Below, piece by piece: positions 1 through 42,489 of a DNA stretch of 64,000 bases. This stretch comes from Eledone cirrhosa (lineage: Eukaryota). Each line of letters begins with the position of its first letter. Within the stretch, counting starts at the first letter, position 1. A program made the translations under genes and the position numbers. The notes under the pieces were generated by a model. It saw nothing but the letters and a program-made list of their open reading frames with translations, made no database searches and was not told the origin of the DNA. The stretch spans positions 60,574,001-60,638,000 of the forward strand of contig OZ024741.1 of assembly GCA_964016885.1 (NCBI GenBank). Direction: 5' to 3'.

Positions 1-426
1 GAATTTATGCCGTACGGTGTTAAGGCAACCACGTCACCTTTTTGTTCAACACTGACACAGGAACAATGTACTAGTTTCAAGCTTCTTAGCTGTCATCAGC
101 ACCGTATACCGTTCTGCCAGATGGTTGAAAGTACGAAAGTATATACTTTCCTTATGAAATTTCATTTCTCACTCTTAGTACGCCACTTACTTAAATGTAA
201 GTATGCATGTCTACGTACATACATATATGTATAGAGACGTACAGTAGCATGCATATATATATATATATATACATGCAGGTACACATACATATATGTACGT
301 ATCAGTTTAGCGGACGTTTATTATAACGCCCGCTTTGTCCGTTTGTAAACAAACTGACAGCCTGAATTTATTCCGTACTGTGTTAAGGCAACCACGTCAC
401 CTTTTTGATCAACACTGACACAGGAA

Positions 427-467
427 CGATGTACTAGTTTCAAGCTTCTTAGCTTTCATCAGCACCG
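427..467 (-). ncRNA. Type I hammerhead ribozyme motif (representative copy; one per array unit)
   Basis: Minus strand reads CGGTG CTGATGA AAGCT AAGA AGCTT GAAA CTA GTA CATCG. Stem I is CGGUG/CAUCG, the cores are CUGAUGA and GAAA, stem II is AAGCU/AGCUU and stem III is the palindrome ACUAGU. The cleavage triplet is GUA, with the cut between 432 and 431. Stem I extends via CUGGCA/UGUCAG and GUUCAAC/GUUGA(A/U)C to about 407-493. Most other copies have U.U at the first stem II pair. Confidence 0.88.
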
Positions 468-542
468 TATACCCTTCTGCCAGATGGTTGAACGTTCGAA
501 AGTATACACTTTCCTTATGAAAATTAACGGCTGAGCAGCCTA

Positions 543-38058: not shown

Positions 38059-40341
38059 ATGTATGTATACGTACTTATCCCGGCGGATAAGACTAAAAAC
38101 CTATACTCCATGGATTATAGTGCTTACCGCGACTTTATTTATAAGGAGCTGCATAGAAACTATAAAAAAACTACACTTGCGAATTTGAACCACATCAATA
38201 GTGATGGCCTTAGAATTGTCTCTGACCTCGGCCTCGATAAGTATACCCAGCCATATTACCCTCGAGAACCGAGATTCACTCTTAAGGATCATAAGGTTGA
38301 TTTTATTAGTAACCCCTCCGTTAGACTCATCTGTCCTTCTAAGTCTGATATAGCCATTATCAGTAAAAAAATCCTTGACCTTATTATACCAGATGTTAGG
38401 GATAAGGTTAATTTTAACCTATGGGGGAACACTAAGGAAGTTATAGATTGGTTCTCCGGGATTAATAGACTTGAATCTAATAAGTTTATCCAATTCGATA
38501 TTGATGCCTACTACACATCAATTTCACCCGTCCTCCTCAATAAAGCTCTAATGTTGGCAATGAGAGTGTCCAGCCTTACACGATCACAGGTAGATATTAT
38601 ACTAGCAGCCCGTAAAACTATTATTAAATTTGAGGATACATTTTGGACCCGTAAAAACACGCCCAACAATTTCGACGTTACAATGGGTTCGAGTGATTCG
38701 GCCCAGGTTACTGATCTTGTTGGGTTGTTCCTCCTTAATGAACTATATACTACCTTCCCGCACCTTATAGGCGGACTATATCGTGATGATGCATTGTTTG
38801 TAATTAACTCTAGCACCAACAATGTAGAACATAATAAGAAGAAGCTTTATAAGTTTTTTAAAAGCTATAACCTTTCGATCACGATAGATAGAAATGATAG
38901 AGCGGTTAACTTTTTAGATGTGACTTTGGACTTGGTCACTAATAGTTTTAAACCCTTCCATAAGCTTAATGAAATACTTTCTTATGTTAGTCCCAATTCT
39001 AACCACCCCAAGTCTATGATAAGCTCTATAATTAAGGGTGTATCTAATAGGATTTCCACACTCTCTAAGGACGTAGAAACATTTAATGAACATGCGGAGT
39101 ACTATAATAATGCCCTAGCAAATTCAGGTTACTCTAGTAAAATACACTATAATAATAGTAACCTTAGAAAGTCTCCGTCTACTTTTAATAATAATAATAT
39201 AATATCACATAACATGGCCATGAATGTGAGTAGCAAACATAGTAACCGTAAAAATTATATAGGTGTATCTGAACCCACCCATAAGTTAACCCACCGAACC
39301 CGCAATAGTGAATATAATACCTTTAGGAAACAAGTTGAACCCCCTGAGCGCTCACACATTGGGGATAATTTAGCTGGATCTTATTCTGATAATGTTGCTC
39401 CTACTGATCCTACTGGAGGTAGAAACTGTAATAGACTTAATGAAATTTTGGCTGATTCTAGGAATGCGGCTTTAACTAATCCTTGTAGTAACCCTAGTCT
39501 CGATGGCGGGATATTCGATAATGGTAGAGTCGGTAAGAATAAAAATAGAAGGCGATTAAACACTTATTTCAACCCGCCATATAATCAGGAAGTATCAACT
39601 AATATCCCTAGGTCTTTCTTCTCCATCTTAGAGAAAAATTTCCCCCCTTCTCATAAATACCATAGTATTTTTAATAAAAATGTTATTAAACTTTCATTCT
39701 CTACCACCCCTAATATTAGTTCTCATTTAGCTAGTACTAACAATAGGAACATTAGGGATGGATTCTCCTCTCTACATACTACTAGTCTGAACAGATCTGG
39801 CAATGCATTACCACCAGAACAGTCCTTATCTAATAGCAATCCTACGTGTAATGCATCACCACTTGAGTCAACCAATAATACCCGGAAGTGCAATTGTAGA
39901 GTGAGTGCTAACTGCCCTTTAAACGGTAACTGCCTTTCTAAGAACATTGTCTATGCTTGCGAAGTTATAACTAATTCCTCTAATAGAACTTATATAGGCT
40001 CTACATCTAACACTTTTAAGACTAGGTTTAACTCTCATATCTCTAATTTCAAGCATGTTAAGTTTAAGAATTCTACTTCTTTAGCACATTATGTCTGGGA
40101 TCTTAAGATAGCTAATATACCATATAGCCTTAACTGGCGTTTAGTAGCACGCTCTAACCACCTTTCTACACATACTAAGTTTTGTAATCTCTGTATCCTC
40201 GAGACACACTCTATAATCTTCTCTAGCGCATCTTTACTTAATAGAAAGTCTGAGATATTCTCTTCTTGCCCCCATGCTATTTCTAATTCATACTTTTATT
40301 ATAAACCTAAACGTTCTAGTAGTACAAATTGTACCCATTAG
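38059..40341 (+). CDS. PLE reverse transcriptase + C-terminal GIY-YIG endonuclease (760 aa ORF; first ~5 codons supplied by the satellite)
   Basis: RT motifs are IPADKT, KDHK...VRLICP, QFDIDAYY, TMGSSDSAQVTDL, GLYRDD and VNFLDVTL. Also present are SNHP, YFNPPY, CNCR...CPLNGNC, IVYACEV...TYIGST...FKTRFNSH (GIY-YIG) and CNLCILE...LLNRKSE. There are no internal stops. Confidence 0.93.
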   Translation: MYVYVLIPADKTKNLYSMDYSAYRDFIYKELHRNYKKTTLANLNHINSDGLRIVSDLGLDKYTQPYYPREPRFTLKDHKVDFISNPSVRLICPSKSDIAIISKKILDLIIPDVRDKVNFNLWGNTKEVIDWFSGINRLESNKFIQFDIDAYYTSISPVLLNKALMLAMRVSSLTRSQVDIILAARKTIIKFEDTFWTRKNTPNNFDVTMGSSDSAQVTDLVGLFLLNELYTTFPHLIGGLYRDDALFVINSSTNNVEHNKKKLYKFFKSYNLSITIDRNDRAVNFLDVTLDLVTNSFKPFHKLNEILSYVSPNSNHPKSMISSIIKGVSNRISTLSKDVETFNEHAEYYNNALANSGYSSKIHYNNSNLRKSPSTFNNNNIISHNMAMNVSSKHSNRKNYIGVSEPTHKLTHRTRNSEYNTFRKQVEPPERSHIGDNLAGSYSDNVAPTDPTGGRNCNRLNEILADSRNAALTNPCSNPSLDGGIFDNGRVGKNKNRRRLNTYFNPPYNQEVSTNIPRSFFSILEKNFPPSHKYHSIFNKNVIKLSFSTTPNISSHLASTNNRNIRDGFSSLHTTSLNRSGNALPPEQSLSNSNPTCNASPLESTNNTRKCNCRVSANCPLNGNCLSKNIVYACEVITNSSNRTYIGSTSNTFKTRFNSHISNFKHVKFKNSTSLAHYVWDLKIANIPYSLNWRLVARSNHLSTHTKFCNLCILETHSIIFSSASLLNRKSEIFSSCPHAISNSYFYYKPKRSSSTNCTH

Positions 40342-42312
40342 CTGATATATTCCATTATTTATTTTTTAGTTTAGGTCCTTTTGTTTGCCAACATTATTAT
40401 TATCATCATTATTATAATTGGTTTTTGATGACTCTTCATTCTAGATCTCATAATCTTTTGGCTACTGTACCACATCTATCTTCTTACGCATTAAATTTTC
40501 ACTGTTACACCTTATGAATGTATATAAGATTATATATTTCACGCTATTTATTTTATTTTATCCTTATTTTTATTTTTATCTTTATTCGGATTCTTCTTTG
40601 GAACCTCCCCCCCCCCCCTTGCGCACATAAACTTATTGTCAACCCCTCCAAATTGACTATGATTATATTATATTTAACCCCCCCCTCTTTTACACTCCTT
40701 TCTATTATGTAATATAGTATATCGACTATATTTTATGCCCCTTTGCATCCTCTATACATTTCTTCATTTCTGTCCCTATTAGCCTACCTTAATTCTGCTT
40801 AAGTCAGTTCTTTCGATATCGTTATGTATATGATAATAAACAATTTTCATTCCTTTTTGTAAACATTTGGAACGAAATATTAACGTTTATAAACTTTAAT
40901 GACTTAAACTATAGCCAATATTATACTGCCTTATTGGATAGTTTAAATATTTTTAATATTAATTTATCAAATAGGGTTTTCGAGTCATTTACAGGGGTTG
41001 TTTCCTTAGCATTTTCTTAACTACTTAACTGCATGTGAGACCTAAATGTAGACGTTTGTTTTTGTTTTTTAATTTCCGGTTGATTCTATTTATTAATATT
41101 ATTCTATACTTTGTAATACTACTGTGCATTATATTTACTATTTACTGTCTGGCACTCACTCATCCATGTACATGTCTGTCTACCAACCTTGTAATTATAA
41201 GTAATTATATATTATATTGTATTAATTTTATTTTATATAATATATCATATTATATTGTATTTTTTATTGTAATATTGATCCTTATTATTTACTGTTAATT
41301 ATATGTAACATTATGATATGTTAAACCTTATATATCTTGTAAGATGTTTGTACTTCTGTATCATCAAAATTTTTTTGAGGTATTGTACATTTTATTTTTC
41401 CTCACCTACTCTGTAACCCGGTATGAATTGACTTGTTAACTTGAGTACATTTAGAATGTTAGTATATTGTATATTGTAAATATTATTATTATATTATTAT
41501 TGTGACATCTATATTGTTTGTGTAAATTAACCGGAGATTATCTATTCTATTATATTGTATTATATAGTATATGATTGTATTATTCATTATTATATGTGCT
41601 ACTTATAATTATATCATATTATTACCTATGTACTACTTATAATTATATCATATTATTACCTCATGTATATTGGGTAGATGTATTAGTATTATTATTATTA
41701 TTATTTTCATTCCTATCATGCTTATTTTTATATTCAAATTCTTAATAAGGTTTAATTTGTGCAGTTGAGGATGGATGTGTGTATTGTTGTATGTGTATGT
41801 GTGTGTGTACGTGGGCGCACATATATATATATATGCATATTGTATCTTTTGATTTTTATTGTAATTTTAATGTTGGTAAATTAATATTATAGTATATTAT
41901 ATTGTATTATATATAATTCCTGCTCTATATAACCACCTTTGTTTAGCTCTACTTTTTGCTTTGGACTATATTTGTAATATGGTTCTTAGTGTTATATACA
42001 TCCTTAGTAATTTTTATCATATATTTTTATTATATATTTTTGTAATACTTCAGTGTATGTACACTCCATATACTTCGGAGCTTCCGGCTTGTATCTGCCG
42101 ATATTACTTCTTGTTGTTTTAATTGCCCTGGTGAGTCCTTAATAGGACGAAACATTGTCGGCTAATAAAGACTTTTGATGTATTGAAGGCTTCTTTGTTT
42201 TACTCTCTTAATTGTTCGGCTCTGTTTAACTACATTGAGCTATACCTTTTACTGTCATTTCTATAATACGAAGAGGGTGTTTAACTCTAACACACTCCAG
42301 TATTTTAACCCT
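38075..42312 (+). mobile_element. Penelope-like retroelement, 5'-truncated, with ~2 kb AT-rich 3' region ending at (TA)n
   Basis: RT + GIY-YIG ORF, with a hammerhead and AATAAA at about 42122-42169. The 3' end abuts the (TA)n of the interrupted satellite unit, and about 35 bp of the target unit is missing at the 5' junction. Confidence 0.93.
42122..42166 (+). ncRNA. Minimal type I hammerhead motif in PLE terminal region (core variant CUGGUGA)
   Basis: ATTGCC CTGGTGA GTCCT TAAT AGGAC GAAA CATT GTC GGCTAAT. Stem I is GCC/GGC, stem II is a perfect 5 bp and the triplet is GUC. Core position 6 is G instead of A. Confidence 0.75.
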
Positions 42313-42489
42313 TATATATATATATATATATATATATATATATATATATATATATATATATATATATATATATATACATACAGGTACACATACATATATG
42401 TACGTATCAGTTTAGCGGACGTTTATTATAACGCCCGCTTTGTCCGTTTGTAAACAAACTGACAGCCTGAATTTATGCCGTACGGTGTT
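42313..42489 (-). repeat. Terminal partial satellite unit (true right end of the array)
   Basis: (TA)n-CATACAGGTACAC...GCCGTACGGTGTT matches the array consensus, then unrelated sequence follows. Confidence 0.95.

What the first reader, a model, noticed from the sequence alone, without database searches (positions are those of the whole stretch)
1..42489. A ~72-copy tandem array of hammerhead ribozymes: a retrozyme-like self-cleaving satellite hidden behind (TA)n repeats
Seen: each ~500-bp unit has on the minus strand CGGUG-CUGAUGA-(U/A/C)AGCU AAGA AGCUU-GAAA-CUA-GUA-CAUCG, a type I hammerhead layout. Stem I is extended by further helices (CUGGCA/UGUCAG, GUUCAAC/GUUGAAC). Known: tandem type I hammerhead repeats (newt satellite 2, schistosome Sm-alpha, metazoan non-LTR retrozymes) self-process multimeric transcripts into monomers, and non-LTR retrozymes accumulate as circular RNAs. 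Inference: this locus yields ~460-560 nt monomers or circles cut at GUA^C. A unit this long with an embedded microsatellite, in a 38-kb array in an octopus-like genome, is not a family I recognise. Novelty is unverified.
Basis: partly seen in the sequence, partly recalled or inferred. Interest (0 to 1): 0.92.

Follow-up and report, generated by a model that had tools for sequence, protein, structure and literature searches.

The report
Penelope-hitchhiking hammerhead retrozyme family
This 72-copy array is one outpost of a roughly 12,000-copy non-coding repeat carrying a hammerhead-ribozyme motif, whose insertion ends match those of Penelope retrotransposons, which likely copy it into (TA)n tracts; it is likely transcribed from a built-in U6-like promoter and likely cuts its own RNA.

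Summary
Observation confirmed: 72 minus-strand type I hammerhead motifs, 59 with an intact core; 9 more lie upstream of the window. It is not a one-locus satellite. The genome holds 11,753 exact intact cores, and dispersed copies are 97-98% identical to window units. Dispersed insertions have variable or inverted 5' ends and two fixed 3' ends joined to (TA)n. In 49 of 59 inverted insertions one arm ends long and the other short, the Penelope-like element (PLE) 'tail' signature. A young Hydra-type PLE inserted in this array shows a similar two-end pattern. Each unit carries TATGCAAATTAG plus a TATA box, the pair found upstream of this genome's U6, U6atac and RNase MRP genes, but 4-6 nt closer together. 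Core, stem II and promoter motifs have 0 of 42 common variant sites. Helix III is a 6-nt palindrome and stem II opens with U·U, so cleavage is probably weak as a monomer and better as a dimer. Cleavage, expression and circles are untested. The class (non-LTR retrozyme), unit length and array size are already known. The junction evidence for PLE mobilisation and the U6-like internal promoter are the added value.

The parts
1..24470 (-). Retrozyme array block 1: 49 hammerhead motifs, ~431-nt units joined by (TA)n; 8-unit higher-order repeat (~4 kb); continues upstream of the window
   Evidence: (lag-8 divergence 2.1% vs 3.6-5.2% at other lags)
26701..38077 (-). Retrozyme array block 2: 23 hammerhead motifs
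42313..42496 (-). (TA)n plus last partial unit (unit pos 312-431): the 5'-truncated end of the array
2335..2765 (-). Reference unit (unit pos 1-431; window coordinate = 2766 - pos)
2486..2526 (-). Type I hammerhead (unit 240-280); predicted cut between 2491 and 2490; palindromic ACUAGU helix III; U·U at base of stem II
2466..2552 (-). Extended stem I rod enclosing the hammerhead (unit 214-300)
1524..1535 (-). Octamer-containing motif TATGCAAATTAG (unit 156-167), shown in unit 1260-1690; matches the -77..-79 element of this genome's U6/U6atac/MRP genes
2561..2568 (-). TATA-like box GTATATAC (unit 198-205), 43 nt after the start of the octamer motif; implies a start near unit 229 (window ~2537), inferred
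2368..2393 (-). Hairpin (unit 373-398) with four compensatory base-pair changes between subfamilies
2647..2662 (-). 'Long' 3' end site (unit ~119) at which dispersed copies join genomic (TA)n
2706..2721 (-). 'Short' 3' end site (unit ~50-60)
24471..26700 (-). 5'-truncated Penelope-like element inserted in a (TA)n; C-terminal GIY-YIG with CX4CxxC finger (Neptune-type by motif); own minimal hammerhead-like motif at ~24560-24587
38078..42312 (+). 5'-truncated Penelope-like element with an open RT (YRDD) + GIY-YIG frame (38035-40341) and a CxCX5C linker (Hydra-type by motif); own type I hammerhead 42122-42166; short end ~42212, long end ~42313

Best explanation
The array is one expanded copy of a genome-wide, non-coding repeat with a type I hammerhead motif in every unit (a non-LTR retrozyme), likely copied into (TA)n tracts by a Penelope-like RT/endonuclease, likely transcribed from an internal U6-like promoter and likely self-cleaving. 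Steps: (1) inferred, ~0.6: the octamer+TATA pair starts transcription near unit 229, and some transcripts read through the four T4 runs into the next unit. (2) inferred, ~0.7: neighbouring hammerheads pair through the ACUAGU palindrome and cut at GUA^C (GUU^C in an older subfamily), giving ~460-560-nt monomers; some are likely ligated into circles (~0.55). (3) pattern shown, enzyme inferred, ~0.9: a PLE protein nicks both strands of a (TA)n tract and primes reverse transcription at two internal sites (unit ~119 and ~55-60). This leaves one long and one short end, variable 5' truncation and inversions. The template is a circle or an uncut multimer, not a cut linear monomer. The Hydra-type family in this array is the leading candidate helper (~0.5). 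(4) shown by higher-order repeats: this long array then grew by DNA-level duplication and was itself hit by two PLEs, because each unit carries the (TA)n target.
For: Dispersal: 2610 candidates, with copies 97-98% identical on six contigs among the 40 scored; 11,753 exact intact cores, control 0. Ends: 374 exact long-end/TA and 2114 short-end/TA junctions, controls 0. In 91 loci, 152 of 179 3' ends abut TA versus 13 of 118 5' ends, and the 5' ends spread over the whole unit. Of 59 simple inverted insertions, 49 are long+short, 0 long+long, 2 short+short, 8 interrupted or cut; 13 of 14 are long+short among loci not chosen by an end pattern. PLE tails at one end only, inverted 5'-truncated partners and (TA)n preference are described in PMC8557442; two internal RT start sites and both-strand nicking in PMC11167929. 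In the Hydra-type family, 4 of 9 inverted partner arms seen in 29 loci end at a short site 101 nt upstream of the long site. Selection: 0 of 42 core/stem II/promoter positions carry a variant at >=5%, versus 66 of 301 elsewhere (copies are related, so p=7e-5 is indicative). Common variation in the hammerhead is limited to N7, loop II and a G·U to A-U change. An ~81%-identical subfamily keeps the core in 31 of 35 copies and uses GUU. Four compensatory pairs in hairpin 373-398. The hammerhead strand folds better than the opposite strand (z -5.2 vs -2.6). Promoter: 5 loci from 3 gene families (3 U6 lineages, U6atac, RNase MRP) have TATG(C/G)(A/T)AAT(T/G)AG at -77..-79 and TATA at -30; the motif occurs in 10 of 20,000 shuffled units and 3 times in 229 kb of flank.
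Against: No cleavage, transcript or circle was observed. The computed minimum-energy fold mis-pairs the core (-27.9 vs -23.3 kcal/mol for the open-core fold; inner stem I pair probabilities 0.13-0.20); helix III has one pair and 71 of 72 window copies lack a 10.1-11.1 pair. Only 1 of 9 predicted Xenopus retrozyme dimers cleaved in vitro. Octamer-TATA spacing is 43 (33 of 35 old copies) versus 47-49 in the real genes; the upstream CTCCCTT-like element seen in U6/U2 flanks was not seen in the unit; four T4 runs (unit 98, 104, 122, 184) would stop Pol III before the next promoter. Only 4 of 43 adjacent unit pairs in dispersed insertions are identical and 4 differ by one base; 56 of 143 differences in young pairs are alleles seen in other loci, which fits multimer templates better than one circle. 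No compensatory double change was seen in the hammerhead stems themselves. The unit shows no homology to the 3' regions of the two PLEs tested (best E 0.22), so the helper is not identified. 13 of 72 window cores are defective, against 19 of 152 dispersed ones.
Confidence: 0.7

Rival explanations
1. Same PLE-mobilised non-autonomous element, but the hammerhead cuts rarely or only with protein help, and uncut multimeric RNA is the sole template; there are no circles.
For: 0 of 118 5' ends lie within unit 270-283 while 158 pieces run through the cut site; most adjacent units in one insertion differ; weak predicted fold; in the anole PLE, cleavage is protein-assisted and dispensable for insertion (PMC11167929).
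Against: The core and palindrome are held across subfamilies ~81% identical. L025, L045 and L106 carry identical or near-identical units with near-equal TA spacers, as rolling-circle copying would give. An axolotl hammerhead with a U·U stem II base and one with a one-pair helix III both cleave as dimers and yield circles (PMC7229834).
Confidence: 0.22
2. (Concerns step 1 only.) The octamer/TATA pair is not a working Pol III promoter; transcripts come from Pol II read-through or a Pol II snRNA-like use of these motifs, as in the newt satellite.
For: Spacing 4-6 nt short of all five Pol III type-3 loci; internal T4 runs; newt satellite 2 is reported as Pol II from an snRNA promoter (secondary citations).
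Against: This genome's U2 genes (Pol II) lack the octamer motif at -78 (5 loci shown), whereas U6, U6atac and MRP have it; both motifs are among the most conserved parts of the unit (1.0% and 0.7% departures vs 5.1% overall).
Confidence: 0.35
3. A DNA-only satellite or fold-back DNA element, amplified by unequal exchange or DNA transposition, with a relic or chance hammerhead.
For: The window array has higher-order repeats that also amplified core-defective units; the sequence around (TA)n is quasi-palindromic.
Against: Polarised ends (fixed 3', random 5'), long/short asymmetry in 49 of 59 inverted insertions, and selective conservation of the core are not expected of DNA-level spread.
Confidence: 0.04

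Closest known systems
Metazoan non-LTR retrozymes (coral, mussel, axolotl; PMC7229834, parts 2-4 of 6 read, supplement not readable)
   Same: Non-coding tandem units, one type I hammerhead each, low GC, arrays from dimers to tens of copies, thousands of copies, co-existing PLEs. The one-pair palindromic helix III resembles HHR_Amex1 and the U·U stem II base resembles HHR_Amex2.
   Different: Units are longer than that paper's 150-450 bp and contain a variable (TA)n. Here there are defined asymmetric PLE-type ends and U6-like promoter motifs, which the parts read do not describe. RNA and circles are not shown here.
Vertebrate non-LTR retrozymes as PLE derivatives (bioRxiv 10.64898/2026.07.22.740005, parts 1-3 of 5 read; supplements closed)
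   Same: Proposes PLE machinery; reports lengths of 51-972 bp and arrays of up to 180-300 units.
   Different: Its evidence is co-occurrence and pLTR homology, with no molluscs among the taxa named. Here no pLTR homology was found to the two PLEs tested, and the evidence is insertion-end architecture.
Penelope-like elements, Hydra and Neptune clades, and non-autonomous Chlamys/MRC1 (PMC8557442, passages; PMC11167929, parts 1-2 of 4)
   Same: Tail at one end, inverted 5'-truncated partner, (TA)n targeting, two RT start sites, head-to-tail non-autonomous copies.
   Different: No ORF; the two ends are ~60 nt apart rather than a 30-40-bp tail; the non-autonomous Chlamys elements share 3' sequence with their helpers, which was not found here.
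Newt satellite 2 and schistosome Sm-alpha (seen only through passages in PMC2220036 and PMC6765202; the Coats 1994 paper was not held)
   Same: Tandem hammerhead repeats with an internal promoter: snRNA-type Pol II in newt, Pol III in schistosome.
   Different: Here the motifs match the host's Pol III type-3 (U6/MRP) upstream elements rather than its U2 promoter. That the Sm-alpha promoter is tRNA-like A/B boxes is recalled, not checked.

Membership tests
Type I hammerhead ribozyme | Invariant core CUGANGA / GAAA / UH with three helices, open at stem I | tested here: met
   59 of 72 window motifs; 11,753 genome-wide
Type I hammerhead ribozyme | Rfam gathering score | tested here: not met
   none at gathering; HH9 18.1 bits, E=0.084
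Type I hammerhead ribozyme | R10.1-Y11.1 pair closing stem II and a stable helix III | tested here: not met
   U·U in most copies, 1 of 72 paired; helix III is one pair plus CUAG; both departures occur separately in axolotl retrozymes
Type I hammerhead ribozyme | Self-cleavage | not testable with these tools
   needs in vitro transcription
Non-LTR retrozyme | Non-coding tandem units with a type I hammerhead in each; no LTR structure | tested here: met
   PBS/PPT not specifically searched
Non-LTR retrozyme | Many dispersed loci (monomers, dimers, multimers) | tested here: met
Non-LTR retrozyme | Expressed as linear and circular monomers | not testable with these tools
   no RNA holder was listed, so the test could not be run
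Non-autonomous Penelope-like element | Fixed 3' ends with tail at one end, 5' truncation, inverted partner, microsatellite target | tested here: met
Non-autonomous Penelope-like element | Sequence homology to the pLTR/3' end of an autonomous PLE | tested here: inconclusive
   none to the 2 families tested; no PLE ORF continuous with a unit was recognised in 40+29 sampled loci; many other PLE families untested
Pol III type-3 (U6-like) promoter | Host upstream element plus TATA in sense orientation | tested here: met
Pol III type-3 (U6-like) promoter | Element-to-TATA spacing as in host genes (47-49) | tested here: not met
   43 in young and old subfamilies
Single-locus satellite DNA | Confined to one or few arrays and spread by DNA exchange only | tested here: not met
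   dispersed with polarised ends

The most novel reading that the evidence does not exclude
A self-contained RNA parasite that carries a captured U6-type Pol III promoter, a dimer-dependent hammerhead, two RT priming sites and a copy of its own (TA)n target in one ~500-nt circle, and is rolled into the genome in trans by a Hydra-clade Penelope enzyme with which it shares no sequence. This would be a retrozyme with a named helper and a genomic record of both-strand, two-site priming.
Probability: 0.25. Interest if true: 0.75.

Novelty: new variant of a known kind. Interest (0 to 1): 0.52.

Why it matters
How animal retrozymes get back into the genome has been a hypothesis resting on co-occurrence with PLEs and pLTR similarity. 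This family leaves thousands of junctions with the PLE-specific long/short end signature. It sits beside young, 97-99% identical PLE families, one with an open RT-endonuclease frame, so trans-mobilisation can be tested directly with a named RNA, named priming sites and a named target. It also offers a candidate promoter, which explains how a unit keeps its own transcription start. The class itself is known, so this extends rather than overturns current knowledge.

Tried and rejected
Expression: no RNA holder listed. The three runs laid were contigs of unrecorded type and show only that the family is abundant in organism A and that one ~95%-like contig exists in organism B; they say nothing on expression. 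Rfam at gathering found only a tRNA-like hit; miRNA and snoRNA hits on the TA-rich arms are far below cut-off and were rejected, as was a C/D snoRNA reading. Looking for 5' ends at the cut site or predicted start gave no peak. The Neptune-type PLE as helper is less favoured: 25 of 25 ends in 24 loci fall at one site, and its single inverted arm also ends there (small sample). The shared 'CTTA' at retrozyme and Hydra ends was not used, since older copies end in CCATTTAT. A contrast in core damage between array and dispersed copies was not evident (13 of 72 vs 19 of 152). Five of six U6atac hits lacked upstream motifs and were treated as pseudogenes; one U6 locus (L122) has an insertion between the motifs and the gene. 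The first unit-splitting script failed. Literature searches found no description of this family or of a U6-type promoter in a retrozyme. A 2026 Octopus vulgaris repeat annotation has no mention of ribozyme, hammerhead or retrozyme in its text or its one supplement (PMC13282606). The giant squid paper only counts 235 Rfam hammerheads. Repbase and Dfam could not be searched, so the sequence may already be there under another label. Earlier scan notes: nothing.

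
Full report
OBSERVATION. The window opens inside a head-to-tail array of ~431-nt units separated by variable (TA)n tracts. A fuzzy anchor finds 72 minus-strand hammerhead motifs between 104 and 37868. Of these, 59 have all invariant core letters and 48 also keep the stems. Spacing is 363-557 nt, median 503. A unit folds far better than shuffles (z -8.6), and more so on the hammerhead strand when the TA-like arms are left out (z -5.2 vs -2.6). 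Rfam gives no gathering-level hit and only a weak HH9 match (E 0.084). Nine more motifs lie in the 10 kb upstream, so the array holds 81. Two 5'-truncated Penelope-like elements interrupt it: 24471-26700 (minus) and ~38078-42312 (plus; open 768-codon frame with YRDD and a sub-threshold GIY-YIG Pfam hit, E 0.0016). I use unit coordinates from window 2335-2765 minus.

IT IS A DISPERSED MOBILE FAMILY. The unit has 2610 candidates in the 3.0-Gb genome, and scored copies outside this array are 97-98% identical on several large contigs. An exact intact-core pattern occurs 11,753 times, evenly on both strands, control 0. Subfamilies reach down to ~81% identity. Dispersed copies stop at two fixed points in hammerhead sense, unit ~50-60 (short) and ~104-119 (long), and run straight into (TA)n. 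Exact junction counts are 2114 and 374; the long pattern fits only the young subfamily. In 91 loci, 168 of 179 3' ends fall in these two windows and 152 abut TA, whereas 118 5' ends spread across the unit and 13 abut TA. Seventy of the fetched loci were chosen by an end pattern, so that end is biased. The opposite end is not. Of 59 simple inverted insertions, 49 have one long and one short end, none two long, two have two short, and eight are interrupted or cut by the locus edge. Five complex loci were set aside. Among loci chosen by similarity alone it is 13 of 14. This matches PLE architecture: inverted 5'-truncated partner, tail at only one end, (TA)n preference (PMC8557442, passages). It also matches the biochemistry of both-strand nicking and two internal RT starts (PMC11167929). 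The polarity independently points to the hammerhead strand as the RNA template (inference). No target duplication can be read inside (TA)n.

HELPER. The plus-strand PLE has a CxCX5C linker, the Hydra-clade motif, and that clade is reported to insert into (TA)n. Its family is young (2552 candidates, 95-99% identity among those scored) and has a long end and a short end 101 nt apart. Of 9 inverted partner arms seen in 29 loci, 4 end short, 2 long, and 3 elsewhere or at the locus edge. The minus-strand PLE (Neptune-type by its finger motif; my assignment from motifs) is also young and TA-targeting, but showed one end only: 25 of 25 in 24 loci. Neither shares sequence with the unit, and no PLE ORF continuous with a unit was recognised in sampled loci. 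The helper class is therefore well supported and the family is not identified.

RIBOZYME. Among 249 dispersed pieces, common variants (>=5%) occur at 66 of 343 positions but at none of the 42 in core, stem II and promoter motifs (related copies, so indicative). Inside the hammerhead they fall on N7, loop II and a G·U to A-U stem I change. The old subfamily keeps the core in 31 of 35 copies and uses GUU instead of GUA, still an allowed NUH triplet (NUH rule from established knowledge). A hairpin at 373-398 has four pairs changed on both sides; 97.5% of cells pair versus 29-40% for slid controls. The hammerhead stems show only one-sided changes. Against strong activity: helix III is one pair plus a CUAG loop, stem II opens with U·U, and the computed best fold mis-pairs the core by 4.6 kcal/mol. 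The ACUAGU palindrome can pair between units (-6.8 kcal/mol). Dimer-dependent cleavage is the known behaviour of such motifs (PMC4209133 passages; axolotl), but 8 of 9 Xenopus dimers did not cleave.

PROMOTER. Three U6 lineages, one U6atac locus and RNase MRP share TATG(C/G)(A/T)AAT(T/G)AG at -77..-79 and a TATA box at -30; five U2 loci do not have the first motif there. The unit has TATGCAAATTAG at 156, identical to one U6 gene, and GTATATAC at 198, in sense with the hammerhead. Chance is about 5 in 10,000 per unit (motif defined after seeing the data). Both motifs are among the best-conserved parts. However, the spacing is 43 rather than 47-49, in old and young copies alike, and four T4 runs follow in the next unit. 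I give a working Pol III promoter about 0.6. Internal promoters have precedent in newt and schistosome repeats (secondary passages only).

TEMPLATE AND ARRAY GROWTH. No 5' end lies within unit 270-283 (0 of 118), while 158 pieces run through the cut site, so cut linear monomers are not what gets inserted. Of 43 adjacent unit pairs in dispersed insertions, 4 are identical and 4 differ by one base, some with near-equal TA spacers (L025, L045, L106), as a circle or a fresh duplication would give. Most pairs differ, partly at alleles shared with other loci (56 of 143), as multimer transcripts would give. Both templates remain possible. The window array shows an 8-unit higher-order repeat that also multiplied core-defective units, so its length is due to DNA-level duplication after insertion.

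COMPARISON AND VERDICT. It works like, and by anatomy is, a metazoan non-LTR retrozyme; the RNA-level defining features were not testable. Unit length and array size lie within published ranges. Nine literature searches and the octopus repeat annotation gave no description of this family. The supplements of the two key retrozyme papers and Repbase/Dfam could not be seen and may list it. New variant of a known kind; interest 0.52.

Noticed in passing
L111-L113, L137, L143 (upstream -79..-30): This genome's Pol III type-3 genes use an octamer-containing TATG(C/G)(A/T)AAT(T/G)AG at about -78 plus TATA at -30. U2 genes instead show a TCAGT-like motif near -57 and a TATA-like run near -34. A CTCCCTT-like motif lies near -260 to -285 in several U6 and U2 loci. 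Useful for designing host U6 expression cassettes.
   Followed up: partly
G000:C19:31.78-31.84 Mb; G000:C3:307.35-307.45 Mb: Tandem arrays of U6 (~1.8-kb period) and U2 (~2.2-kb period) genes; in L122 a SINE-like piece sits between the U6 upstream motif and the gene.
   Followed up: no
window 42122-42166: The Hydra-type PLE hammerhead reads CUGGUGA rather than CUGAUGA in this copy (Rfam Hammerhead_1, E 0.0015); not checked whether this is family-wide.
   Followed up: no
L150, L158, L160: Copies of the Hydra-type PLE that continue past the long end contain a short internal (TA)n just before a likely ORF start, so an internal TA tract is not unique to the retrozyme.
   Followed up: partly
window ~47867-48756: Fragment of another Hydra-like PLE (about 31-48% amino-acid identity to the 768-aa frame).
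   Followed up: no
window 45876-45946 (-): Weak tRNA-like Rfam hit (32.7 bits), probably a tRNA-derived SINE head.
   Followed up: no
L021:5168-5670; L093:3330-3650: Near-perfect fold-back elements inserted in (TA)n tracts, one at the left end of this array.
   Followed up: no
L026:5135-6330: An unrelated ~310-bp tandem repeat with an inverted partner, inserted in a retrozyme (TA)n; same PLE-like architecture, possibly another non-autonomous family.
   Followed up: no
L027-L028 (G000:C2:122.66-122.68 Mb): A second long retrozyme array with its own higher-order repeat that includes a nested short-end insertion.
   Followed up: partly
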